From NCBI GenBank assembly GCA_964016885.1, contig OZ024740.1:330460001-330524000 (forward strand): a DNA stretch of 64,000 bases. The letters run 5' to 3'. Shown in pieces: positions 1 through 64,000 of the stretch. Both the position numbers and the translations under genes were made by a program. Every line of letters begins with the position of its first letter. Position 1 is the first letter of the stretch. Origin of the DNA: Eledone cirrhosa (Eukaryota). The notes below the pieces were generated by a model. The model was not told the DNA's origin, did not search any database, and saw only the letters and a list, made by a program, of their open reading frames with translations.

Positions 1-1850
1 CGTGTCCGGTGGCTGTGAGGGAGCCTCTCATGCAATCAGGCAGTTCTTCAGCAGCTGCCCATCGGTACCGTCATCCAGGGACTCCAGGCACCTCATTGTC
101 AAGCTTGACATGAGGAATGCCTTTAACTCTTTACGCCGGGATCATCTGCTCGAGGCCTGCCTCAGACAAGCCCCCTCTGCCTACCCGCTGGCCTATCTGT
201 CATATGGAGCCCCAAGCATGCTCCTAGCTGCTGATACGGTCATAGCCTCGGCTACTGGGGTCCAACAGGGCGACCCTTTGGGACCCTCCTGTTCGCTCTT
301 GGTATTGACCACATCGCCCGGAGTATCACGGCTCCTCTCAACTTTGGTATCTGGATGATGCTACGTTGGGCGGGCCCGTACGGACGGTCTGCCAAGACCT
401 TCAATCGCTGATTCCTGCTCTGGCGGGAGTCGGCCTCCAGGTCAACTCGGCCAAGTCGGAGGTGGTGAATGTCAGCCTCGATACTGTGAGCTTTGCAGCC
501 TCCGTCTTGGACGTACGGTCCATTCTCCGACAGGTTCAGGTTACCCCCAAAGAGGATGTCCTCATCCTCGGGTCACCGATCCATCCGCCGGCCATCCGCT
601 CCACCCTCAGGTCCAGGCTTCAAAAACTCCAGACTCTCACGAGCTGACTGGGCTTGATTGACGGCCACCCAGCTCTCTTTCTACTGAGAAACTGCTTCGC
701 CATGCCGAAGCTCCTCTATACACTCCGCAGAGCTCCATGCACACCCAGACATCTCTCCTCGCTGACCTCGATGCTTGTATCCGAGCAGCAACCGAGTGGA
801 TATGCAACGTACAGTTTGACGACATAGGGTGGCAACGTGCCACTTTACCGGTCAGGTATGGCGGCCTAGGCCTCCGGTCCCCGATCTCACTAGCTTTGCC
901 GGCGTATCTTTCGTCGGTAACCTCGTGCCGCGTCCTCGTCAGCAAGGTTCTTCAAAACACAACAGAACCATATGTGTTCAGAGAACGTGAGGCTCCCTGT
1001 GAGACGTGGGACTGGCTGGGACTTAGCCCAGTAGACATCCCTTCTCTTTCTCCCCCTGTTCACGTCAAGTCCCCCCAACGCAGTTGGGATGCCATCCAGT
1101 GCAGCTTTGCCTCAGACAGGCTCACGCGCCAGCTTGACCAGCACCGCCTTGCTTGGTTTCGTGCGGCCTCCAAACCCCACAGTGGTGCCTGGTTCCATGC
1201 TGTGCCCTCATTCTCCACTGGCACGCAGCTAAACAACCATAGCCTGCGAATCGGCGTTTCCCTGAGTCTCGGCCTCCGGATCTGCCAGCCACACCAATGT
1301 CGCTGAGGTTCCACCGTGGACTATTTCGGCCTCCACCCGCTTTCCTGTCGCCACAGTGCCGGCCTGCATTCCACGCCATACTGCCCTCAACGTGGTCATT
1401 AAGCATGGCTTGGACGCAGCAGGCTCCCCTTCCCAGCTCGAGTCGGTGGGGATGGATCGAAGGGATAGCAAAAGGCCAGATGGCATGACCATATTCCCGT
1501 TCCGCGGTGGCAAACCCCTCGTCTGGGATGCCACATGCACCGACACTTTCTGCAGCCGCAACCTAGTGCAGGTTGCGACTGGCCCAGGTTCTGCTGCACG
1601 TCGGGCTGAGGGGGCCAAGCTCCTCAAATACCGGTCGCTCTTCGACAAGTTTGCGGTCGTTCCCCTAGCAGTAGAAACTTCTGGTGTCCTCGGCCCAGGG
1701 CTACCTCCTTACTCACCACCATAGGCGCTGTTCTGACCAGCCGTATGTGTGAGCCCCGCGAGTTGGAGTTGCTTTTCCAGCGCGTCTCCCTTGCCGTCCT
1801 CCGGCGAGACGCCTTCTCCATTCAGTCCGCCGGGGCTGTGGGTGGGCCCC
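1..1850 (+). mobile_element. CRE-clade-like non-LTR retrotransposon (RT, Zn knuckle, restriction-like endonuclease), frameshifted, 5' end outside window
   Basis: Motifs across ORFs 2-358, 366-647, 737-1306 and 1356-1724: KLDMRNAFNSL, GVQQGDPLGP, W-YLDD (near 345-360, shifted frame), LPVRYGGLGLR, HSGAWFHAVP, RHTALN, KRPDGMTIFPFRGGKPLVWDATC, AEGAKLLKY, PLAVETSGVLG. GC-rich against an AT-rich background. Confidence 0.85.
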
Positions 1851-2639: not shown

Positions 2640-3860
2640 CCTTACCCCCCCCCCCCCACACACACACCCGTATTCGACCCACTACCACAACTAATATACT
2701 AAAACCCACACGCACTCACTCCCAAACACGCACACACACACACCAGTATATCACACTCACTCATACTGTACCCAGCACCTTCTCTCTCTTCCCCGAACTA
2801 CCAACACCCCCACACTACGCATCCTACTAACCTCCACTAATATACACCCAACACCCCTACACACTGCACACACCACTCCCTCAACTTTTCATACTAACCC
2901 ACTTCATCTCCTGTCCACCGCACCTCTGCACACACATACAGATACAGGCTACACCTGCCAACCATCACTCGCCTGTGTGTCACTTACCCTCTCGACCGTT
3001 ATCTCCCCTACCTCTCTCTCTCTCTTGCATCCTTCACCCTGCCTTCTCCACCCCCTGCCTTGACCTTCTTGTCCACTTCCTGTCGCGTGCGCCCCACAAC
3101 TTTCTACACCCTCCTCACCAATCCCACGGTTCCTACAACACTGATCACTTTCTCTGGACTCTAACCGATAACATTTCTCTGGAATCTAACCGATAACATC
3201 CGACCACACACTCACTGGGAAAACATTCAGGAACACACAATCACACAAACACTTACACTATTTTCGCACACACGCAACCATACATTCCCACGTATCCACA
3301 CCACACAAGAACACAGACAGACACGTGCGTATCGTCACATACACCTACTCTGACTCCGAATTCCGCACGCCCCTCTCCACCCCCTCCGACCCTCTCCATC
3401 CACAAGGACACACACACACACACACACTGACTTACACCCCACCCTATGTACACACTGGTTTTTCTATTACCCGCGCATGGAACATCGTTCTTCCCCAAAC
3501 TCTCACACTCACATCCACACATACACACGCACACACACACACGTACAGCTACACACATACAAACACACCCTCCCCGCTGAAACCCCTGTTTTCTTCTCTC
3601 TCTCTCGCCCTCCATCCAAAAACCCACCACCACCTCTACACACCTCACACCCTCTCACCACTTGTTTTCATCTTAATTTGTTTTCCTTCAATTTAACCCC
3701 CCCCCCCATCCTATTTAATGTCTTTCCACCACTCCTCCTTACACCCTTGGAAATATTTTCCTTCCCACCTTTCTCCTGATGAAGATCTTATACCCGAAAC
3801 GTCTCCCCTCCACTCTCAAGCGTGAACCTAATACCAACACTGTTCATACTACACTTTTTG
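2640..3860 (+). mobile_element. Degraded Penelope-like 3' end with C/A-rich low-complexity sequence and decayed HHR core
   Basis: HTGFSITRAWNIVL (near 3450-3495) resembles the PLE C-terminal G..l...W..l motif. CTGATGA(3776-82)...GAAACGTC(3796-3803) has broken stems. Followed by (TA)n. Confidence 0.35.
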
Positions 3861-24588: not shown

Positions 24589-24642
24589 TGTGTTTTTTGT
24601 GTGCGTGTGTGTGTGTATGTATGTATACATATATATATATAT

Positions 24643-24673
<31 letters not shown>

Positions 24674-24679
24674 TATATA

Positions 24680-24739
<60 letters not shown>

Positions 24740-24790
24740 TATGTGTGTATACGTACATACATATATGTATACAGACGTACAGTAGCATGC

Positions 24791-24865
<75 letters not shown>

Positions 24866-24995
24866 CATATACATACAGGTACACATACATATATGCACGT
24901 ATCAGTTTAGCGGACGCTTATTATAACGCCGCTTTGTTCGTTTGTTACGGTGTTAAGGCAACCACGTCACCTTTTTGTTCAACACTGACACAGGA

Positions 24996-25038
24996 ACGAT
25001 GTACTAGTTTCAAGCTTGTTAGCTATCATCAGCACCGT
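24996..25038 (-). ncRNA. Type I hammerhead ribozyme (family C)
   Basis: Minus strand reads acggtg CTGATGA tagct aaca agctt GAAAC TA GTA catcgt. Stem I is fully paired and stem III is the palindrome ACTAGT. Confidence 0.85.
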
Positions 25039-25467
25039 ATACCCATCTACCAGATAATTGAACGTTCGAAAGTATATACTTTCCTTATGAAAATTAACGG
25101 CTGAGCAGCCTAATTTGCATATCGAGTGAGCTAAGTCGGTCAGGCATACCGAAAACGATAAGTTGAAATAAAATGAAAACGAAATTTCATTTCTCACTCT
25201 TAGTACGGCACTTAATTAAATGTAAGTATGTGCGTATACGTACATACATATATGTATACAGACGTACAGTACACACATACTTACATTTAAGTAAGTGCCG
25301 TACTAAGAGTGAGAAATGAAATTTCGTTTTCGTTTTATTTCAACTTATCGTTTTCGGTATGCCTGACCGACTTAGCTCACTCGATATGCAAATTAGGCTG
25401 CTCAGCCGTTAATTTTCATAAGGAAAGTATATACTTTCGAACGTTCAACTATCTGGCAGATGGGTAT

Positions 25468-25510
25468 ACGGTGCTGATGATAGCTAACAAGCTTGAAACT
25501 AGTACCTCGT
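25468..25510 (+). ncRNA. Type I hammerhead ribozyme (family C), one stem I mismatch
   Basis: acggtg CTGATGA tagct aaca agctt GAAAC TA GTA cctcgt. Confidence 0.8.
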
Positions 25511-25666
25511 TCCTGTGTCAGTGTTGAACAAAAAGGTGACGTGGTTGCCTTAACACCGTACGGCATAAAAATTCAGGCTGTTCAGTTTGTTTACAAACGA
25601 ACAAAGCGGCGTTATAATAAGCGTCCGCTAAACTGATACGTGCATATATGTATGTGTACCTGTATG

Positions 25667-25710
<44 letters not shown>

Positions 25711-25822
25711 TGCTACTGTACGTCTGTATACATATATGTATGTACGTATACACACATACTTACATTTAAGTAAGTGCCGTACTAAGATTGAGAAATGAAA
25801 TTTCGTTTTCATTTTATTTCAA

Positions 25823-25904
<82 letters not shown>

Positions 25905-26505
25905 TATATTTTAATAACCACGCAAATGTTAAACTAGCCTGCTTTTAAATTCCCTTTTTGGCGTATTACCAGTGAGACCTTGGTTACCATGTTGAGCGTG
26001 ACCATCCCCACTGAAAGTTTTCGTGAAATAGTCTTTTCAAGACTATACAGAGTATTTGAAGTTGTCCCAAATTGAAGGTTGAGTACTTTAGACTTTGTTT
26101 TATCATGAGTTAAGGCTCTATTGATTTTTCCCTGGATTTCTCTAAATTTTGTTGGATAAATCTATATCCTGATTGTTTTTGAATTGAGTCTGAATTATTT
26201 TTCCCATATCTTATGTTAACTATTTTCCCATTTTGACGCTATATTCACATATATGTTAAGGAATACTTTTAGCTTCTCGCTACAACAATTTCTATACTTT
26301 TTATTTATATATATATATATATATATTAGAAAGTGAGGTTTTCTTACGTGTCCTACACGAGGGAAAGTATATAGAAAAAAGATGAAATCTAAAATGCAAC
26401 TGGAGTCTCATTTAAAAAAATATATATATTTATCTGGTTCCTTTACCGGTTTCGCAGTTCTTCTGCTTTTCAAATGTAGAGTTGACCTGGAGGGTCTCTG
26501 GTTTT

Positions 26506-28946: not shown

Positions 28947-28982
<36 letters not shown>

Positions 28983-29266
28983 TCGTTTCTGAATTTGTTA
29001 AGCAAGATTCTTTATCTGAAAATGTGTCTTGAAATCGATATTGTTATACTTTGGGAGGGTCATGTTGCCAATAAGAAACATACGCACCAGTTACTTTCAA
29101 TTCAATTTATTATAATACATTTAAACATTTAGGAATTTATAAATTTCCGGTTGGTTGGTTGGTTCCACAACCAGATGATTGTTTATATATTGTCAAAATT
29201 ATTTCGTCACACATTCTGTGACCTCTTCAGTGACTGAAGAACAGTCAGGAATTAGAGAAAAACACC

Positions 29267-30305
29267 ATGGAAAGCATCCATCAAATAGCTAACTCCATCC
29301 ACCAGAGTATAAGAGTTACTCTAGACTACCCAAGCAAACACCTCATCCATCGATTACCTGTACTAGACACAGAGCTCTGGTTAGATACCATTAATAACAA
29401 AAAACAAATCCTCCATTCCCATTATGCCAAACACATGACTTCCAAATATCTGATCCACCGAAACTCAGCTGTTTCGGACCATACCAAAATCAACATACTG
29501 ATTGCGGATTTGGTACGCGTGATGAGAAACGTGTGCCGCATGTGCAACCCCAAAGATCTAGAGAGACACATACAACACTTCATCCACCGTATGCCATTCC
29601 CTGGTTACAATCAGAGAGCTAAAATCAGAGTATATAGAGGAGCCAGAACCAAATGGGAACAAATGGTAAATAATGACACAAATTGGACCTGCCCCTTGTA
29701 TAGGAGCAAATTTTGGAATATAATAGAAAGAACTAGGAATAAGGTTAATAGAATAAACTTATGGTATGATAGCAATACATACCAGAGTGAAATGTTCATC
29801 GATACAACCCCTAGAAGTGAATTAGCTTACAAATTTAGAAGTGCCCTAGATAAACATAAACTCAATATTAAGATAGTAGAAAGACCAGGTACCTCCATAA
29901 AAACACTTATTACCAATAAATACCCTTTTCAAAGACCTCCCTGTATAGATAAGAAATGTATAATATGTAAATTAAACCCCCGTGTTAACTGTAACACTAG
30001 AAATGTAGTACATAGCATAAGATGTACTGAAGGACAATGTAGAGATAATACTATAGTGTACATAGGTGAGACAACTCGTATGAACACTGGCGAGACCTTC
30101 AAGATAGTAAAGAATCATCTGTACTCTACCAACATGCTAAAATAGAACATAATGGTAAATTGGAGAACATATAAATAAAAATAGAATCTACACACAGAAA
30201 AGACGCAATGTTTAGACAAATCACAGATGCAATAAACATAAATGAACTCCAACCAAAATTAAATAGAAAACATGAATGGAACAGCAACATCACAACTTAC
30301 AATTA
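29267..30305 (+). pseudogene. PLE RT/GIY-YIG polyprotein fragment
   Basis: IHQSIRVTLDYP, LPVLDTELW, YLIHRNSA, CIDKKCIICK...C, VVHSIRC...C...VYIGETTR. After a frameshift or deletion it continues [12 protein letters not shown]...FRQIT...PKLNRKHEW. Confidence 0.85.
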
Positions 30306-30505
30306 AGGACAACATGAAAACATACACGCACAGAGAACAAACAACCAACCAGTAACATATAAATAAACAAATAAATAAGCAAATATAAAGACACACAGAC
30401 ACCCGGATGCAACACATGCGCAAACTAAACACACAACACACGAAAAAACAAGATGGCGTAGGCTAGAACAACGGAGAGGCACAAAAAACAAAGAAAAAAA
30501 TCCCC

Positions 30506-30550
30506 AGTCACTGAAGATGTCACACAATGTGTGACGAAAGAACTTTGACA
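30506..30550 (+). ncRNA. PLE pLTR hammerhead ribozyme
   Basis: agtca CTGAAGA t gtcacac aat gtgtgac GAAAG AA CTT tgaca. Confidence 0.7.
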
Positions 30551-30695
30551 ATGTATAAACAATCATCTGGTTGTGGAAGCAACCAACCAACCGGAAATTT
30601 ATAAATTCCTAAATTTATAAATTTATTATAATAAATTGAAGTGAAAGAAGCTGGTGCGTGTGTTTCTCATTGGCAACATGACCCTCCCAAAGTAT

Positions 30696-30771
<76 letters not shown>

Positions 30772-32605: not shown

Positions 32606-32789
32606 TTTGTATATATATATATATATATATATTGGAGTAAATGCTCTGAAATAGCGATATATATGTGAATATAGACATAGAATATTCGAAAATATTCTGT
32701 ATGTTTATAATAAACATTTTGAAGACCTAATCGCTATAGAATAGAATACGTCACGTATTACAATTAGATTCTCGATAAAAGCAAGGGAA

Positions 32790-32832
32790 GTAATCTACGC
32801 GTTTCATTCTTGTTAGAATTCATCAGGACCAC
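32790..32832 (-). ncRNA. Type I hammerhead ribozyme (family A), also at 33100-33142 and 33410-33452
   Basis: Reverse complement of gtggtc CTGATGA attct aaca agaat GAAAC GC GTA gattac. Confidence 0.9.
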
Positions 32833-33782
32833 ATATCCAGTGCTTTTATCGAGAATGACACAGCTAGAGACTTATAGAATACTTAGCTGTGTACAGGAAC
32901 TGGTTTGAAAGAGCGGTTGCCGGTCCGGCAGAAATTAGAAATTGGAGTAAATGCTCTGAAATAGCGATATATATGTGAATATAGACATAGAATATTCGAA
33001 AATATTCTGTATGTTTATAATAAACATTTTGAAGACCTAATCGCTATAGAATAGAATACGTCACGTATTACAATTAGATTCTCGATAAAAGCAAGGGAAG
33101 TAATCTACGCGTTTCATTCTTGTTAGAATTCATCAGGACCACATATCCAGTGATTTTATCGAGAATGACACAGCTAGAGACTTATAGAATACTTAGCTGT
33201 GTACAGGAACTGGTTTGAAAGAGCGGTTGCCGGTCCGGCAGAAATTAGAAATTGGAGTAAATGCTCTGAAATAGCGATATATATGTGAATATAGACATAG
33301 AATATTCGAAAATATTCTGTATGTTTATAATAAACATTTTGAAGACCTAATCGCTATAGAATAGAATACGTCACGTATTACAATTAGATTCTCGATAAAA
33401 GCAAGGGAAGTAATCTACGCGTTTCATTCTTGTTAGAATTCATCAGGACCACATATCCAGTGCTTTTATCGAGAATGACACAGCTAGAGACTTATAGAAT
33501 ACTTAGCTGTGTACAGGAACTGGTTTGAAAGAGCGGTTGCCGGTCCGGCAGAAATTAGAAATTGGAGTAAATGCTCTGAAATAGCGATATATATGTGAAT
33601 ATAGACATAGAATATTCGAAAATATTCTGTATGTTTATAATAAACATTCGCTATTTCAGAGCATTTACTCCAATTTCTAATTTCTGCCGGACCGGCAACC
33701 GCTCTTTCAAACCAGTTCCTGTACACAGCTAAGTATTCTATAAGTCTCTAGCTGTGTCATTCTCGATAAAAGCACTGGATAT

Positions 33783-33825
33783 GTGGTCCTGATGAATTCT
33801 AACAAGAATGAAACGCGTAGATTAC
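33783..33825 (+). ncRNA. Type I hammerhead ribozyme (family A), 9 plus-strand copies starting 33783, 34093, 34403, 34713, 35023, 35333, 35643, 35953, 36263
   Basis: Stem I gtggtc/gattac, core CTGATGA 33789-95, stem II attct/agaat, GAAA 33810-13, palindromic stem III ACGCGT, GUA cleavage triplet 33817-19. Distal stem I extension 33759-74/33832-47. Confidence 0.92.
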
Positions 33826-36425
33826 TTCCCTTGCTTTTATCGAGAATCTAATTGTAATACGTGACGTATTCTATTCTATAGCGATTAGGTCTTCAAAATG
33901 TTTATTATAAACATACAGAATATTTTCGAATATTCTATGTCTATATTCACATATATATCGCTATTTCAGAGCATTTACTCCAATTTCTAATTTCTGCCGG
34001 ACCGGCAACCGCTCTTTCAAACCAGTTCCTGTACACAGCTAAGTATTCTATAAGTCTCTAGCTGTGTCATTCTCGATAAAAGCACTGGATATGTGGTCCT
34101 GATGAATTCTAACAAGAATGAAACGCGTAGATTACTTCCCTTGCTTTTATCGAGAATCTAATTGTAATACGTGACGTATTCTATTCTATAGCGATTAGGT
34201 CTTCAAAATGTTTATTATAAACATACAGAATATTTTCGAATATTCTATGTCTATATTCACATATATATCGCTATTTCAGAGCATTTACTCCAATTTCTAA
34301 TTTCTGCCGGACCGGCAACCGCTCTTTCAAACCAGTTCCTGTACACAGCTAAGTATTCTATAAGTCTCTAGCTGTGTCATTCTCGATAAAAGCACTGGAT
34401 ATGTGGTCCTGATGAATTCTAACAAGAATGAAACGCGTAGATTACTTCCCTTGCTTTTATCGAGAATCTAATTGTAATACGTGACGTATTCTATTCTATA
34501 GCGATTAGGTCTTCAAAATGTTTATTATAAACATACAGAATATTTTCGAATATTCTATGTCTATATTCACATATATATCGCTATTTCAGAGCATTTACTC
34601 CAATTTCTAATTTCTGCCGGACCGGCAACCGCTCTTTCAAACCAGTTCCTGTACACAGCTAAGTATTCTATAAGTCTCTAGCTGTGTCATTCTCGATAAA
34701 AGCACTGGATATGTGGTCCTGATGAATTCTAACAAGAATGAAACGCGTAGATTACTTCCCTTGCTTTTATCGAGAATCTAATTGTAATACGTGACGTATT
34801 CTATTCTATAGCGATTAGGTCTTCAAAATGTTTATTATAAACATACAGAATATTTTCGAATATTCTATGTCTATATTCACATATATATCGCTATTTCAGA
34901 GCATTTACTCCAATTTCTAATTTCTGCCGGACCGGCAACCGCTCTTTCAAACCAGTTCCTGTACACAGCTAAGTATTCTATAAGTCTCTAGCTGTGTCAT
35001 TCTCGATAAAAGCACTGGATATGTGGTCCTGATGAATTCTAACAAGAATGAAACGCGTAGATTACTTCCCTTGCTTTTATCGAGAATCTAATTGTAATAC
35101 GTGACGTATTCTATTCTATAGCGATTAGGTCTTCAAAATGTTTATTATAAACATACAGAATATTTTCGAATATTCTATGTCTATATTCACATATATATCG
35201 CTATTTCAGAGCATTTACTCCAATTTCTAATTTCTGCCGGACCGGCAACCGCTCTTTCAAACCAGTTCCTGTACACAGCTAAGTATTCTATAAGTCTCTA
35301 GCTGTGTCATTCTCGATAAAAGCACTGGATATGTGGTCCTGATGAATTCTAACAAGAATGAAACGCGTAGATTACTTCCCTTGCTTTTATCGAGAATCTA
35401 ATTGTAATACGTGACGTATTCTATTCTATAGCGATTAGGTCTTCAAAATGTTTATTATAAACATACAGAATATTTTCGAATATTCTATGTCTATATTCAC
35501 ATATATATCGCTATTTCAGAGCATTTACTCCAATTTCTAATTTCTGCCGGACCGGCAACCGCTCTTTCAAACCAGTTCCTGTACACAGCTAAGTATTCTA
35601 TAAGTCTCTAGCTGTGTCATTCTCGATAAAAGCACTGGATATGTGGTCCTGATGAATTCTAACAAGAATGAAACGCGTAGATTACTTCCCTTGCTTTTAT
35701 CGAGAATCTAATTGTAATACGTGACGTATTCTATTCTATAGCGATTAGGTCTTCAAAATGTTTATTATAAACATACAGAATATTTTCGAATATTCTATGT
35801 CTATATTCACATATATATCGCTATTTCAGAGCATTTACTCCAATTTCTAATTTCTGCCGGACCGGCAACCGCTCTTTCAAACCAGTTCCTGTACACAGCT
35901 AAGTATTCTATAAGTCTCTAGCTGTGTCATTCTCGATAAAAGCACTGGATATGTGGTCCTGATGAATTCTAACAAGAATGAAACGCGTAGATTACTTCCC
36001 TTGCTTTTATCGAGAATCTAATTGTAATACGTGACGTATTCTATTCTATAGCGATTAGGTCTTCAAAATGTTTATTATAAACATACAGAATATTTTCGAA
36101 TATTCTATGTCTATATTCACATATATATCGCTATTTCAGAGCATTTACTCCAATTTCTAATTTCTGCCGGACCGGCAACCGCTCTTTCAAACCAGTTCCT
36201 GTACACAGCTAAGTATTCTATAAGTCTCTAGCTGTGTCATTCTCGATAAAAGCACTGGATATGTGGTCCTGATGAATTCTAACAAGAATGAAACGCGTAG
36301 ATTACTTCCCTTGCTTTTATCGAGAATCTAATTGTAATACGTGACGTATTCTATTCTATAGCGATTAGGTCTTCAAAATGTTTATTATAAACATACAGAA
36401 TATTTTCGAATATTCTATGTCTATA

Positions 36426-36458
<33 letters not shown>

Positions 36459-45277: not shown

Positions 45278-46035
45278 AATGTGTGTCTGTGTGTGAACCT
45301 ATCTATTGCTGCGTGTCTGGATGTTTGTTCCTGTGTGCCAGTCTGAGGTTTCTTTTAATTTCATGTTTCATGTAATTATATTTTATAAGCTCATGAATTA
45401 AATTTATTTCTATAAATCTAAGCCGATTTCATATATCATATAAGTTATTATCTCCGATTTCCAATTAGGTTTATCCTCTGAATCATTACTTATTTGCAAT
45501 ACTGATCTGTATATATATGACGGTTTATCAAGGTCGTTGTTAAATAACGTTTGATTTCGTTTTATTTTTAAACTACTATTATTATTAAATTCACAAATAA
45601 TGATATAAAATGATAAATATTTTATGAAATTAATCGCGATTCAGACACGCAAATGAAACCGCACATGAAAAGGAATTATGATATTGAGTATTTAGTGATT
45701 TGGAACAAACTACACCAATTCGGTTCCTATTTACTCAATTCCATTCAGTCAGTCATTCGATTAACGTGAATACATTTTCTCAGCATGCTGATGCAAACAA
45801 CGGAATAGGATGTAAGTAATAATCATAATAATATCATACCCAGTTAATGTATGCTTTTATCTGATCTGTTATACATCAATAAACTATATTAAACAGGTTT
45901 CTTATTTTTTTTTTTGCTTTACCCAAGAAATGTAAAACTTTGCATCTAATGCCCAATTCATATTTGTCCTAAGAACATTAACGAAAAACAAAAGCAAACT
46001 AAACACCAACTGCCTCAAAGGCCGGTAGATAGGTA

Positions 46036-46080
46036 AATATTGCTGATGAGTTGTAACAACAACGAAACTAGTTCAATATT
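46036..46080 (+). ncRNA. Type I hammerhead ribozyme (family B variant)
   Basis: aatattg CTGATGA gttgt aaca acaac GAAAC TA GTT caatatt. Confidence 0.85.
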
Positions 46081-46766
46081 CCTTGTCTGGCTTTCTGGAC
46101 AATAGGGGGAAGGTGTTCTCCCAAAAGTATGTAAACACACAGACAAACCGGTTTTTAGAGTCATACTGGTTTTCGAGGAAACACCTTTCCTCTATTCTCC
46201 AGTAAGCCAGACAAGGAATATTGGACTAGTTTAGATGTTGTTACATCTCATCAGCAATATTTACCTATCTTCCGGCCTTTCTAGAGAATCGTAAAAGCAC
46301 ATATCGTTATATGCTTTTTCTATGAAAATTAGTAGTGGGCAGACTAATTTGCATAGAGCGTGAGTACGTACCGGTTCAGCGGAGACGATAAAAACAAATA
46401 ACGAAACGAAATTAAATTTCGTTTCGTTTACATACAGAATAGCTGGACACTCACAGTAAAGTGTCCAGTGAAAAACTCGGTACATCTACATATGTACACG
46501 TGTGTGTATTCATATGCATACTAGTATTTCAGTATACATATGTGGATGTACATTTCTAACTTAATTGTTTAAGCGTCAGTCATACAAAAGTGAGTTACAA
46601 ACGAAACGAAATTTAATTTCGTTTCGTTATTTGTTTTTATCGTCTCCGCTGAACCGGTACGTACTCACGCTCTATGCAAATTAGTCTGCCCACTACTAAT
46701 TTTCATAGAAAAAGCATATAACGATATGTGCTTTTACGATTCTCTAGAAAGGCCGGAAGATAGGTA

Positions 46767-46811
46767 AATATTGCTGATGAGATGTAACAACATCGAAACT
46801 AGTCCAATATT
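46767..46811 (+). ncRNA. Type I hammerhead ribozyme (family B)
   Basis: aatattg CTGATGA gatgt aaca acatc GAAAC TA GTC caatatt. Confidence 0.92.
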
Positions 46812-47026
46812 CCTTGTCTGGCTTACTGGAGAATAGAGGAAAGGTGTTTCCTCGAAAACCAGTATGACTCTAAAAACCGGTTTGTCTGTGTGTTTACATA
46901 CAGAATAGCTGGACACTCACAGTAAAGTGTCCAGTGAAAAACTCGGTACATCTACATATGTACACGTGTGTGTATTCATATGCATACTAGTATTTCAGTA
47001 TACATATGTGGATGTACATTTCTAAC

Positions 47027-47119
<93 letters not shown>

Positions 47120-48526: not shown

Positions 48527-48598
48527 CATATATACATATATGTATATATATATATATATATACATATAAGTGTATATATATATATATACATACATATA

Positions 48599-48665
<67 letters not shown>

Positions 48666-48673
<8 letters not shown>

Positions 48674-50745
48674 ATACTTTGGGAGGGTCATGTTGCCAAT
48701 AAGAAACACACGCACCAGTCGCTTTCACTACAATTTATTATATATTTATAAATTTATAAATTTACAAATCTACAAACTTATAAATTTCTGGTTGGTTGGT
48801 TGGTTCCACAACCAGATAGTTGTTTATATATAGTCATAGTCCTTTCGTCACACACTCTGTGACCTCTTCAGTGACTGGTGATTCCATTCTTTGTTTCTGT
48901 GCCTTTCCTTTCTTCTATCCTACGCCATTTTGTTTCTGTGTGTGTGTTGTGTGCTCAGTTTGCGCATGCGCCACATCCGGGTGTCTGTGTGTGTTTGTGT
49001 TCATTTATCTGTTTGTTTATTTATTTAATTATTTATTGTTGGTTGGTTGTTTGTTCTATGTGTGTGTGTGTTTTCATTTTGTCCTTAATTGTAAGTTGTG
49101 ATGTTGCTGTTCCACTCATATTTTCTATTTAATTTTGGTTGTAATTATTGTTATACTTTGGGAGGGTCATGTTGCCAATAAGAAACACACGCACCAGTTG
49201 CTTTCACTTCAATTTAATTTATTATATATTTATAAATTTACAAATTTATAAATTTCTGGTTGGTTGGTTCGTTCCACAACCAGATAGTTGTTTATATATA
49301 TATAGTCATAGTTCTTTCGTCACACACTCTGTGACCTCTTCAGTGACTGGGGATTTCTTTCTTCGTTTCTGTGCCTTTCCTTTCTTCTATCCTACGCCAT
49401 TTTGTTTGTGTGTGGGTTGCGTGCTCAGTTTGCGCATGCGCCACATCCGGGTGTCTGTGTGGGTTTGTGTTCATTTTTCTATTTTTCTATTTATATTTTT
49501 CTATTTGTTTGTTTATTTATTTATTTATTGTTGGTTGGTTGTTTGTTCTATGTGTGTGTGTGTTTTCATTTTGTCTTGTGTGTGTTTTCATTTTGTCTTG
49601 TGTGTGTTTTCAATTGTAAGTTGTTTGTTCTATGTGTGTGTGTGTTTTCATTTTGTCCTTAATTGTAAGTTGTGATGTTGCTGTTCCACTCATATTTTCT
49701 ATTTAATTTTGGTTTTAAATCTTTTATGCTTACTGCCTCTGTAATTTGCCTAAACATTGCGTCTTTCTTGTGTGTGGATTCTATTTTTATTTCTATGCTC
49801 TCTAATTTACCCTTGTGTTCTATCTTAGCATGTTGGTAGAGCACAGATGATTCTTTAAGAATCATCTGTGCTCTACCAACATGCTAAGATAGAACACAAG
49901 GGTAAATTAGAGAGCATAGAAATAAAAATAGAATCCACACACAAGAAAGACGCAATGTTTAGGCAAATTACAGAGGCAGTAAGCTTAAAAGAATTAAAAC
50001 CAAAATTAAATAGAAAATATGAGTGGAACAGCAACACCACAACTTACAATTAAGGACAAAATGAAAACACACACACACATAGAACAAACAACTTACAATT
50101 GAAAACACACACAAAATGAAAACACACACACACATAGAACAAACAACCAACCAACAATAAATAAATAAATAAACAAACAAATAGAAAAATATAAATAGAA
50201 AAATAGAAAAATGAACACAAACCCACACAGACACCCGGATGTGGCGCATGCGCAAACTGAGCACGCAACCCACACACAAACAAAATGGCGTAGGATAGAA
50301 GAAAGGAAAGGCACAGAAACGAAGAAAGAAATCCCCAGTCACTGAAGAGGTCACAGAGTGTGTGACGAAAGAACTATGACTATATATATATAAACAACTA
50401 TCTGGTTGTGGAACGAACCAACCAACCAGAAATTTATAAATTTGTAAATTTATAAATATATAATAAATTAAATTGAAGTGAAAGCAACTGGTCCGTGTGT
50501 TTCTTATTGGCAACATGACCCTCCCAAAGTATAACAATATCGGTTTCAACACACGATTTCAGATAAAGAATCTTGCTAAACAAATTCAGAAACGAAATTT
50601 GGTTGTAATTGTTTTATGCTTACTGCCTCTGTAATTTGCCTAAACATTGCATCTTTTCTGTGTGTGGATTCTATTTTTATTTCTATGTTCTCTAATCTAC
50701 CCCTGTGTTCTATCTTAGCATGTTGGTAGAGCACAGATGATTCTT
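48666..50745. mobile_element. Cluster of PLE pLTR/ORF-end copies, same family as 28981-30703: - 48666-49145, - 49146-49858, + 49859-50598, - 50598-50745
   Basis: [12 protein letters not shown]...FRQITEAVS...PKLNRKYEW in ORFs 49659(-), 49868(+) and 50576(-). pLTR HHRs at 48832-48876 (-), 49304-49348 (-) and 50337-50381 (+). Confidence 0.9.
50337..50381 (+). ncRNA. PLE pLTR hammerhead ribozyme
   Basis: agtca CTGAAGA g gtcaca gagtg tgtgac GAAAG AA CTA tgact. Confidence 0.78.
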
Positions 50746-50763
50746 TATATATATATATATATT

Positions 50764-52275: not shown

Positions 52276-53300
52276 TGTGTGTGTGTGTACTTGTGTCTCT
52301 GAGTGTGTTTATTTGTGTATGTTCGCTTCAAATTTATTCAATAAAATATTGCAACTCAAAAGAAGAACAGTATCTACATCAAATGGATGATAATAGAACA
52401 CTATCGACTGTAAATAAATGAGCCCAGCCGAGCAAATTTTGAAATAAGGAAAACTAGTCGATATTCAATAACCTCCACAACAACGTTTGATGATTTAATC
52501 CCCGACAGAATTATTCTGCCTATGCCCCCAAGGATATAAACACATTTTATTGAGCTAGTATCCTTAAATGTTGATATTAGCCTTCCCCACAAATATATAT
52601 TATTATATTTCACTTTTATCTATCCCCTTCTAAATTCTTAGTGCCGTAGATGGAAGTGTCCCCTAAAATAACATTTTTGGGAGCTCCCGTTTTTTTTTTT
52701 TATTTCTTTTAGTAAACATTTACCGGTGCGTTCCGATCTGTCCAGGTCGACCAAGTTGGCCCTGAAGCCCAACGAACGGTTTGTCCTTGGTGCTGTGCTG
52801 TGCTGTCGGAGTTGAGTTGCTCAATACCTTGAACATATTTACCAAATGATTACTAATACCAGTAATATATATATATATATATTTATAATTATCTCCAAAT
52901 TATTTGTTGAGCAAAATTTGCCAAATTACTACTGTGACTGATAGTAGTAGCTAGGCTCTGTCTTAATAGCACCCCCACTCCAAGCTGGTTAACCTCAGTG
53001 TCACGTGATTGATTCTTTTGAATTTGCCACTTGACCAAGAAGGCAGTGAATTTTTCAATGGCTTGGAATCTAGCCCCGCTCGCTTTTTTCCATCCACTGA
53101 ATTATTTTTATATAAGTTCCCAGTGTCCCCGCATTGCCTGGAAACTTAGCTGAGAATAGACTCCCTGATGACGTAAGCCTTCTCTATAGTTATTACGTAA
53201 CTATATTTATGTCCTTACAGAAACTAATTAGTTGGAGTGAAATTTTAGTAAGTAAGTCAATTTTCATAACTTTCTTATTTACGTCTTTCATATATATATA

Positions 53301-54915
53301 TAAAAACAAATAACGAAACGAAATTAAATTTCGTTTCGTTTGTAACTCACTTTTGTATGACTGACGCTTAAACAATTAAGTTAAAAATGTACATCCACAT
53401 ATGTATACTGAAATACTAGTATGCATATGAATACACACACGTGTACATATGTAGATGTACCGAGTTTTCACTGGTCACTTTACTGTGAGTGTCCAGCTAT
53501 TCTGTATGTAAACACACAGACAAACCGGTTCTTAGAGTCATACTGGTTTTTGAGGAAACACCTTTCATCTATTCTCCAGAAAGCCAGACAAGGAATATTG
53601 GACTAGTTTCGATGTTGTTACATCTCATCAGCAATATTTACCTATCTTCCGGCTTCTCTAGAGAATCGTGAAAGCACATATCGTTATATGCTTTTTCTAT
53701 GAAAATTAGTAGTGGGCAGACCAATTTGCATAGAGCGTGAGTACGTACCGGTTCAACGGAGACGATAAAAACAAATAACGAAACGAAATTAAATTTCGTT
53801 TCGTTTGTAACTCACTTTTGTATGACTGACGCTTAAACAATTAAGTTAAAAATGTACATCCACATATGTATACTGAAATACTAGTATGCATATGAATACA
53901 CACACGTGTACATATGTAGATGTACCGAGTTTTCACTGGTCACTTTACTGTGAGTGTCCAGCTATTCTGTATGTAAACACACAGACAAACCGGTTCTTAG
54001 AGTCATACTGGTTTTTGAGGAAACACCTTTCCTCTATTCTCCAGAAAGCCAGACAAGGAATATTGGACTAGTTTCGATGTTGTTACATCTCATCAGCAAT
54101 ATTTACTGGTCTGCCCACTACTAATTTTCATAGAAAAAGCATATAACGATATGTGCTTTCACGATTCTCTAGAGAAGCCGGAAGATAGGTAAATATTGCT
54201 GATGAGATGTAACAACATCGAAACTAGTCCAATATTCCTTGTCTGGCTTTCTGGGGAATAGAGGAAAGGTGTTTCCTCAAAAACCAGTATGACTCTAAGA
54301 ACCGGTTTGTCTGTGTGTTTACATACAGAATAGCTGGACACTCACAGTAAAGTGACCAGTGAAAACTCGGTACATCTACATATGTACACGTGTGTGTATT
54401 CATATGCATACTAGTATTTCAGTATACATATGTGGATGTACATTTTTAACTTAATTGTTTAAGCGTCAGTCATACAAAAGTGAGTTACAAACGAAACGAA
54501 ATTTAATTTCGTTTCGTTATTTGTTTTTATCGTCTCCGTTGAACCGGTACGTACTCACGCTCTATGCAAATTGGTCTGCCCACTACTAATTTTCATAGAA
54601 AAAGCATATAACGATATGTGCTTTCACGATTCTCTAGAGAAGCCGGAAGATAGGTAAATATTGCTGATGAGATGTAACAACATCGAAACTAGTCCAATAT
54701 TCCTTGTCTGGCTTTCTGGAGAATAGAGGAAAGGTGTTTCCTCAAAAACCAGTATGACTCTAAGAACCGGTTTGTCTGTGTGTTTACATACAGAATAGCT
54801 GGACACTCACAGTAAAGTGACCAGTGAAAACTCGGTACATCTACATATGTACACGTGTGTGTATTCATATGCATACTAGTATTTCAGTATACATATGTGG
54901 ATGTACATTTTTAAC

Positions 54916-54921
<6 letters not shown>
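53301..54921. mobile_element. Retrozyme-like family B, locus 2: ~1.7 units (-) at 53301-54105 plus ~1.75 units (+) at 54106-54921
   Basis: Period 465 (duplicate ORFs 53421/53886 and 54159/54624). HHRs at 53594-53638 (-), 54059-54103 (-), 54192-54236 (+) and 54657-54701 (+). (TA)n on both sides. Confidence 0.9.
54192..54236 (+). ncRNA. Type I hammerhead ribozyme (family B), second plus copy at 54657-54701
   Basis: aatattg CTGATGA gatgt aaca acatc GAAAC TA GTC caatatt: 7-bp stem I, 5-bp stem II, ACTAGT stem III, GUC triplet. Confidence 0.92.
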
Positions 54922-63398: not shown

Positions 63399-64000
63399 GG
63401 TATAAACGTTAGAACATTCTCCAGCATGGACGCCAGTATAAAGTTCAGCATAGAACACCCCGATGACCGCGGATCCCTATCCCTGCTGGACTTCCAACTC
63501 AGGGTAACAGAGGAAGGCAACATCCACACCTGCTTCTATAAAAAATCCGCCAGCAGGGACCTGTTCGTACATTTCAGATCGGCCCTCCCACTCGGTGCCA
63601 AGTTCGGATACATAAAGAACGAACTGGCACGTATCAAGAACAAATGCACCGACGCCAGAGACCGAGACACACACACCACACATTTCCTGGAAGTACTCAA
63701 ACTGAACGGATACACGACATCCACCACAAACCGTGCCAGAAAGAACAGAGGACACCACACCCGAGGCACTAACACTTGCTTCCTGAATCTCCCACACTTC
63801 AGTGAAGAAACAACAACAGCCATCCGCAGAGCCATCAGACGAGAAGGTCTGGATATTCAACTGGCCCATTCGGGTCCTTCTTTGCGTGGACGGCTAGCTA
63901 AGAGACACTCCACCAGACATGACAACTGCTGCAGACTAGCCAACTGCCCCATCAACGACACAGACCTATGCCACCAGGCTTACGTAGTTTACAGACTAGA
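63399..64000 (+). CDS. Penelope-like RT C-terminus, thumb, Cys motif and start of GIY-YIG; open to window end, 5'-truncated
   Basis: Stop-free frame (absent from the ORF track): FSSMDASIKFSIEHPDDRGSLSLLDFQLRV...FYKKSASRDLFVHFRSALP...FLEVLKLNGY...FLNLPHFSE...CCRLANCPINDTDLCHQAYVVYRL. Preceded by (TA)n and a ~40-nt extra piece. Confidence 0.85.

What the first reader, a model, noticed from the sequence alone, without database searches (positions are those of the whole stretch)
24736..25826. Third HHR element (~480-bp unit) with an internal TA microsatellite, a diverged relative of family B
Seen: just over one unit on each strand, HHRs at 24996-25038 (-) and 25468-25510 (+). The arms differ by SNPs, a ~35-nt indel and internal (TA)n length, so this is unlikely to be a read fold-back artefact. 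The upstream block aligns by eye with family B (gaaa.gaaattt...ttatcgt...ctcac...tatgcaaattag.ctgc.ca...taattttcata..aaag.atata).
Basis: partly seen in the sequence, partly recalled or inferred. Interest (0 to 1): 0.7.

Follow-up and report, generated by a model that had tools for sequence, protein, structure and literature searches.

The report
Two-armed hammerhead retrozyme, Penelope footprint
This is one back-to-back insertion of a 480-base non-coding repeat that carries a hammerhead ribozyme motif and occurs about ten thousand times in this animal genome; it is a known kind of mobile element, and its two fixed ends in TA repeats suggest it is likely copied by a Penelope-type retrotransposon enzyme.

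Summary
Window 24736-25827 is two diverging arms of a 479-bp unit, each with a type I hammerhead motif, set in (TA)n. The arms differ by private changes (a 32-nt deletion is unique in the genome), so this is no fold-back artefact. The unit is colinear with family B (score 85 against a shuffle maximum of 34.5 outside the ribozyme). Its exact ribozyme occurs 10,354 times. It is a metazoan non-LTR retrozyme, a known kind. New detail: arms end at two fixed sites about 60 nt apart, one per arm in 33 of 34 resolved two-armed insertions. An ORF-bearing Penelope-like element here shows the same rule (8 of 9). Units and arms of one insertion derive from one template. Upstream of the ribozyme lies a box shared with host U6, MRP and U6atac promoters but not U2. 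Likely cycle: transcription, ribozyme cutting, circular monomer, Penelope-primed copying from both cut strands. Cleavage, RNA and the partner enzyme are not shown. This copy is likely a dead end (one ribozyme per strand). The scan noted the same system on other DNA of this genome.

The parts
24736..25271 (-). Left arm, about 1.1 units; outer (3', ribozyme-sense) end at fixed site 1, running into (TA)n
25270..25827 (+). Right arm, about 1.16 units; outer end at fixed site 2, running into (TA)n
24996..25038 (-). Type I hammerhead motif, family-majority sequence; helix I 6 bp, helix II 4 bp closed by U.U, palindromic helix III; predicted cut after GUA (25002/25001)
25468..25510 (+). Type I hammerhead motif with a private A>C at 25506 that breaks helix I; predicted cut 25504/25505; likely impaired
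   Evidence: (1 of 73 motif copies)
25763..25827 (+). About 65-nt 'tail' between end site 1 and end site 2, present at one outer end only
25270..25271 (.). Inversion point, 2-nt TA overlap of the two arms
   Evidence: sequence
25313..25433 (+). Block conserved with family B; spans site 2; predicted three-way junction plus hairpin
25385..25434 (+). Octamer-containing box (25385-25397) and TATA-like word (25427-25434) resembling host U6/MRP/U6atac promoters; mirror copy at 25072-25121 (-)
24801..24860 (.). Internal TA run of the left arm (60 nt)
25673..25706 (.). Internal TA run of the right arm (34 nt)
24945..24946 (-). Site of the 32-nt deletion private to the left arm
24616..24735 (.). Left flanking (TA)n, likely target
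25828..25909 (.). Right flanking (TA)n, likely target

Best explanation
This is one two-armed insertion of a high-copy, non-coding hammerhead repeat (a non-LTR retrozyme) that is likely pasted into TA microsatellites by the reverse transcriptase-endonuclease of a Penelope-like element. Shown: unit, copy number, two fixed outer ends with one per arm, TA targets, variable inner ends, one template per insertion, covarying ribozyme helices, and a promoter-like box shared with host U6-type genes. Inferred cycle: tandem copies are transcribed from the box, starting about 10 nt before the ribozyme (likely RNA polymerase III, with read-through of T4 runs). Two successive ribozymes, probably acting as a dimer through the palindromic helix III, cut out a unit-length RNA that is likely circularised. 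A Penelope-type protein, likely a dimer, nicks both strands of (TA)n and primes one cDNA at site 1 and the other at site 2. Each runs round the template for a variable length, and the two truncated cDNAs are joined back to back. This copy has one ribozyme per strand, so it would not release a unit-length RNA.
For: 10,354 exact copies of the 35-nt ribozyme on both strands. Among diverging two-arm insertions with both ends at a fixed site, one end was site 1 and the other site 2 in 22 of 22 (51 position-sampled loci, 33 pairs, 11 with an unresolved end) and 11 of 12 (25 top-identity loci, 16 pairs); 106 of 114 fixed ends run into TA-rich sequence. Family B in the window ends at the two homologous sites. 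An ORF-bearing Penelope-like element in the window and genome (RT and GIY-YIG-type motifs read by eye) has two ends 60 nt apart in (TA)n, mixed in 8 of 9 resolved pairs. Frangieh 2024 (PMC11167929) shows in vitro that a Penelope protein cuts and extends both strands at AT-rich DNA and starts at two internal sites that define the tail. Opposite arms differ by a median 0.7%, same-arm units 0.9%, different loci 3.9%; near-private variants are shared by all units of both arms, e.g. 2 in 7 units of L120; young arrays share one TA length. No arm starts at the cut site (0 of 98). Ribozyme helices covary across A, B, C (10 of 15 pairs, 0 of 500 shuffles). The promoter-like box matches the three best U6 loci, MRP and, with one change, the best U6atac, and 0 of 5 U2 loci.
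Against: No ORF-bearing element with a C- or B-like terminal repeat was found: the one Penelope family examined shows no sequence likeness, and 20 further single-ribozyme loci had no coding sequence upstream. Rfam hammerhead scores are far below threshold. Helix II is closed by U.U and the monomer's lowest-energy fold hides the core; in the literature 8 of 9 Xenopus retrozymes did not cleave and the Penelope ribozyme was not needed for insertion in vitro. One insertion has site 1 at both ends (L025). Some arrays hold repeated groups of unlike units (L013, L091), which a single monomer circle does not explain. Box-to-TATA spacing is 42 nt against 46-48 in host genes, four T4 runs lie before the next ribozyme, and the same letters fold into a hairpin. 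The covariation structure was drawn from these same sequences.
Confidence: 0.78

Rival explanations
1. Same element and same Penelope-type carrier, but the template is an uncleaved linear multimer from a homogeneous tandem array; the ribozyme is weak or dispensable and no circle is involved.
For: U.U closing pair and inactive lowest-energy fold; no arm starts at the cut site; unprocessed RNA was the dominant substrate in vitro for a Penelope element; period-3 and cross-arm unit patterns in L013 and L091; a 28-unit B array exists that could serve as such a template for B.
Against: Arrays of 7-10 near-identical C units with array-wide near-private variants on both arms need a long, homogeneous parent each time; the ribozyme helices covary across families, so the fold is under selection; related retrozymes make abundant circles (PMC7229834).
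Confidence: 0.3
2. The copies are the 5'-truncated terminal repeats (pLTRs) of an autonomous Penelope element whose full-length copy was not sampled.
For: Footprint is that of Penelope elements; Xenopus retrozymes resemble pLTRs; only 76 C insertions and 20 other loci were read.
Against: Units run head to tail with no coding sequence between them in every array read; both end sites are read through into the next unit, not into an ORF, unlike the true Penelope element here.
Confidence: 0.07
3. A DNA-level repeat (fold-back element, minisatellite or Helitron-like) amplified by rolling-circle replication or unequal crossover, with an incidental ribozyme look-alike.
For: Tandem arrays and inverted arms; no RNA evidence and no strand-biased A>G changes.
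Against: The two outer ends are different fixed internal sites, not terminal inverted repeats; inner ends are random; dispersal over many contigs on both strands; ribozyme covariation.
Confidence: 0.03
4. Assembly or read fold-back artefact.
For: Near-perfect palindrome beside long TA runs; no listed short-read contig spanned the locus.
Against: Arms differ by private substitutions and a genome-unique deletion; outer ends differ and follow a genome-wide rule.
Confidence: 0.01

Closest known systems
Metazoan non-LTR retrozymes (Cervera and de la Pena 2020, PMC7229834: passages and Discussion read; Li, Clavereau and Pollet 2026, 10.64898/2026.07.22.740005: parts 1-3 of 5 read; supplements not seen)
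   Same: Non-coding, low-GC tandem units with one type I hammerhead each, thousands of copies, co-occurring with Penelope-like elements; unit length within the 51-972 bp range reported.
   Different: The passages read describe neither two-armed insertions with two fixed ends nor TA targeting ('inverted' and 'microsatellite' occur 0 times in PMC7229834). Unit is longer than the 170-400 nt studied and holds an expanding TA tract. RNA, circles and cleavage untested here.
Penelope-like elements with GIY-YIG endonuclease, Neptune/Hydra/Naiad types (Craig 2021, PMC8557442, passages; Frangieh 2024, PMC11167929, parts 1-2 of 4; Cervera 2014, PMC4209133, passages)
   Same: Partial tandems, an inverted 5'-truncated copy, a tail at one end only, (TA)n targets, two internal RT start sites, hammerhead with palindromic helix III.
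   Different: No ORF; tail about 60-65 nt against 30-40 nt; no sequence likeness to the one Penelope family examined in this genome.
Schistosome Sm-alpha repeats and newt satellite 2 (seen only as described in PMC6765202 and PMC2220036 passages; Coats 1994 not held)
   Same: Promoter inside the unit ahead of the ribozyme, so only tandem copies can propagate; polymerase III for Sm-alpha, snRNA-type promoter for newt satellite 2.
   Different: Here the box resembles the host's upstream U6-type promoter rather than U2; polymerase and start site are not shown.

Membership tests
Non-LTR retrozyme | Type I hammerhead motif in each unit | tested here: met
   Core letters and three helices present; 10 of 15 pairs covary across A, B, C. 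Rfam below threshold.
Non-LTR retrozyme | Short tandem, low-GC, non-coding units in many copies | tested here: met
   479 bp, 36% GC; arrays up to 10 units; 10,354 exact motifs; only microsatellite-derived open frames over the locus.
Non-LTR retrozyme | [quoted passage not shown] | tested here: not met
   Not met at this locus (one motif per strand); met at many other loci of the family. This lowers the activity of this copy, not the family assignment.
Non-LTR retrozyme | Self-cleavage of the RNA | not testable with these tools
   Folding only: the active double-hammerhead fold is -19.0 against a dimer minimum of -20.9 kcal/mol for the left motif, and -9.8 against -26.4 for the right.
Non-LTR retrozyme | Expressed as linear and circular unit-length RNA | not testable with these tools
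   No RNA holder listed.
Non-LTR retrozyme | No LTR, PBS or PPT | tested here: inconclusive
   No LTR-framed structure in the loci read; PBS and PPT were not searched for.
Penelope-like element (autonomous) | ORF with telomerase-like RT and GIY-YIG endonuclease | tested here: not met
   No ORF in or between units.
Penelope-mobilised element | Inverted 5'-truncated copy with a tail at one end only | tested here: met
   33 of 34 resolved pairs; same in the ORF-bearing element, 8 of 9.
Penelope-mobilised element | Insertion into (TA)n | tested here: met
   106 of 114 fixed ends followed by TA-rich sequence.
Penelope-mobilised element | Sequence homology to a pLTR of an autonomous partner | tested here: inconclusive
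   None to the one family examined; other families not surveyed.
U6-type (upstream polymerase III) promoter | Proximal box near -78 and TATA near -30 as in host genes | tested here: inconclusive
   Both words present; spacing 42 against 46-48; start site untested.

The most novel reading that the evidence does not exclude
A self-promoted RNA circle carrying a captured host U6-type promoter is copied by a dimeric Penelope protein whose two active sites are strictly assigned to two different start points on one RNA structure. Each insertion is then a pair of rolling-circle cDNAs primed from both cut strands. This would give the missing mechanism for Penelope inverted repeats and tails and direct proof that Penelope enzymes move retrozymes, testable with a 480-nt substrate.
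Probability: 0.35. Interest if true: 0.68.

Novelty: new member of a known kind. Interest (0 to 1): 0.42.

Why it matters
The element is ordinary in kind, but the family is a clean natural record of how retrozymes move. The papers read propose Penelope-like elements as carriers from co-occurrence and terminal-repeat homology, and say the mechanism is open. Here the insertions carry the enzyme's footprint, with a near-strict one-arm-per-start-site rule, and define a small RNA substrate (two start sites, a structured block, a promoter-like box) for an in vitro test. Searches listed no paper that reports this footprint for a retrozyme; most subscription papers and the preprint's supplements were not visible. 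The scan has already noted the same system several times on other DNA of this genome.

Tried and rejected
RNA evidence: no RNA holder listed; contigs of four runs of unrecorded kind show the family at very high depth in organism A and related pieces in organisms B and C, but none listed spans the locus. Two source elements for the two arms: rejected. Ends at the ribozyme cut site: 0 of 98 arm starts within 3 nt of unit position 237; loci were chosen by holding the ribozyme, so read-through counts (74 of 93, 35 of 44) are biased upward. Family A as a relative outside the ribozyme: no alignment. The window's Penelope element as sequence parent: no likeness at the end sites (16 of 300 shuffles as high) or over its 4,308-bp unit; a shared TAT|CG at site 2 is suggestive only. 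ORF upstream of single ribozymes: none in 20 loci. U2-type promoter: no significant likeness. Covariation in the block around site 2: weak, 1 of 32 pairs in 12 C-type rows; the alignment with B was out of register. Pfam found nothing in four Penelope/LINE-like frames, so the clade label Neptune-like rests on motifs read by eye against PMC8557442. miRNA hits in Rfam reflect the palindrome and are all below threshold. A protein homologue search was not completed. The pattern for exact site-2 ends gave only 420 matches because subfamilies vary just upstream of the site. The organism was not identified here.

Full report
Observation. The window lies in contig C1 of a 3.0-Gb genome. At 24736-25827 two arms point away from each other, between TA runs. 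With unit position 1 at 25270, the period is 479 bp. The right arm covers positions 1-479 and then 1-79; the left arm covers 445-479, a full unit and then 1-14. Each arm holds one type I hammerhead motif at the coordinates given. The arms differ at 6 of 340 core positions and by a 32-nt deletion whose junction occurs once in the genome. Against the family majority each arm has its own few changes. This excludes a fold-back artefact and points to mutation after insertion.

Relation to family B. Outside the ribozyme and the TA tract, C aligns to B with score 85 (shuffles 22.3 +/- 2.9, 0 of 500), and the two units are colinear end to end; C and A do not align. The internal TA tract matches a TA-rich palindrome in B and a short tract in an older C subfamily, so it is an expanded part of the unit. 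Its length is uniform within young arrays and varies within older ones.

The ribozyme. Helix I has 6 bp plus an outer bulged extension, helix II 4 bp, and helix III is a palindrome that needs a partner, the canonical metazoan form described in PMC4209133. Across seven motifs from A, B, C and the older subfamily, 10 of 15 pairs change on both sides (0 of 500 shuffles); the structure was drawn from these sequences. Against activity: helix II is closed by U.U in 72 of 73 motif copies (overlapping loci counted twice), the monomer's best fold hides the core, and Rfam scores are far below threshold. The right motif has a private change at 25506 that breaks helix I.

The family. The exact 35-nt motif occurs 10,354 times; a looser pattern covering A, B and C occurs 48,567 times. 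I read 25 distinct top-identity insertions and 51 loci covering the first 100 matches on C1, so the sample is from one part of one chromosome plus the closest copies. In ribozyme sense, outer ends fall at two fixed places: site 1 (positions 10-26) and site 2 (72-80). Of 137 arms, 54 ended at site 1, 60 at site 2, 13 in the internal TA tract, 4 at a locus edge and 6 elsewhere; 106 of the 114 fixed ends run into TA-rich sequence. Of 49 diverging pairs, 34 had both ends at a fixed site: 33 had one of each, one had site 1 twice (L025), none had site 2 twice (binomial p 2e-7 and 0.003 for the two sets). Inner ends are spread along the unit, often joined by a few shared letters, and none lies at the cut site (0 of 98). 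The window's locus follows the rule, as do B and A in the window.

One template. Opposite arms differ by a median 0.7% and units of one arm by 0.9%, against 3.9% between loci (174 units, 65 loci). Near-private variants run through all units of both arms in several arrays. Differences within arrays are strand-symmetric and rich in C>T and G>A, with no A>G bias. L013 and L091 hold repeated groups of unlike units, which suggests later duplication or a multimeric template.

The likely carrier. PMC8557442 describes Penelope insertions as partial tandems with an inverted truncated copy, a tail at one end and a bias for (TA)n. PMC11167929 shows that the tail lies between two internal start sites of reverse transcription and that both strands are cut and extended. 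An ORF-bearing element in the window (28950-30720; 33,604 candidates in the genome; a 4,308-bp unit with a 1,208-residue open frame in L128) ends at two sites 60 nt apart in (TA)n. Among 40 loci, 9 diverging pairs had both ends resolved and 8 were mixed (read). It shares no sequence with C or B, so it shows the footprint is Penelope's but is not proven to be the partner. Twenty further single-ribozyme loci had no ORF upstream.

Transcription. The stretch best kept between B and C holds an octamer word (name recalled), intact in 232 units counted against 5 one-letter variants (overlaps counted twice), followed by a TATA-like word. The same box lies at -77 to -79, with TATA at -30, in the three best-scoring U6 loci (3 of 13 examined; the other 10 score lower and are presumed pseudogenes), in RNase MRP (1 of 1) and, with one change seen by eye, in the best U6atac locus (1 of 5). 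It is absent from 5 of 5 U2 loci; background was 3 in 111,600 nt. That would put a start near 25458, just ahead of the ribozyme, the layout described for schistosome repeats in PMC6765202. Against: spacing is 42 nt rather than 46-48, four T4 runs precede the next ribozyme, A lacks the box, and the same letters form a hairpin just downstream of site 2 where an RT could bind. I put a polymerase III promoter at about even odds.

Verdict. A real, moderately young insertion of a metazoan non-LTR retrozyme, related to family B. The kind is known (PMC7229834; 10.64898/2026.07.22.740005). The one-arm-per-site rule, single template and U6-like box add testable mechanism that the passages read do not report. 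Earlier notes of this scan describe the same system elsewhere in this genome. Cleavage, RNA, circles and the partner protein remain unshown, and this copy is likely unable to release a unit.

Noticed in passing
window 28950-30720; L128, L122: Penelope-like retrotransposon fragment with inverted terminal repeat, hammerheads at 29230 (-) and 30511 (+), two ends 60 nt apart in (TA)n; very abundant; the two end sites lie in the first codons of the long frame.
   Followed up: yes
window 32631-36438: Family A: 310-bp hammerhead units, 3.3 on one strand and 9 on the other, ending at two sites about 36 nt apart in (TA)n; no likeness to C outside the ribozyme.
   Followed up: partly
window 33837-33855 and each A unit; L177-L179, L167 upstream: A pyrimidine-rich word just after the family A ribozyme resembles a word at about -260 to -290 of host U6 and one U2 locus.
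   Followed up: no
window 46020-47030 and 53290-54921: Family B, 465-bp units; the second insertion is two-armed with ends homologous to C's sites 2 and 1. A 28-unit B array lies at G000:C1:5738326-5752444.
   Followed up: partly
L041:412-925; L142-L157: Older C subfamily (78-90% identical, unit about 420 bp) with a short TA tract and compensatory ribozyme changes; one copy has a C-G pair where C has U.U (L142).
   Followed up: partly
window 25915-26280: The right flank is itself another repeat family (2,557 candidates, about 90% identical).
   Followed up: partly
window 48560-50760: Further terminal repeats of the same Penelope element in tandem and inverted order, hammerheads at 48871, 49343, 50342.
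   Followed up: partly
window 63399-63998 and 3776: A second Penelope-like RT fragment at the window end and a minimal hammerhead at 3776 of another type.
   Followed up: no
window 662-1724: Fragments of a LINE-like frame (by eye; no Pfam hit) in a GC-rich stretch.
   Followed up: no
runs X5, X6: Related pieces at about 90-95% identity in two other organisms, so the family is not confined to this species.
   Followed up: no
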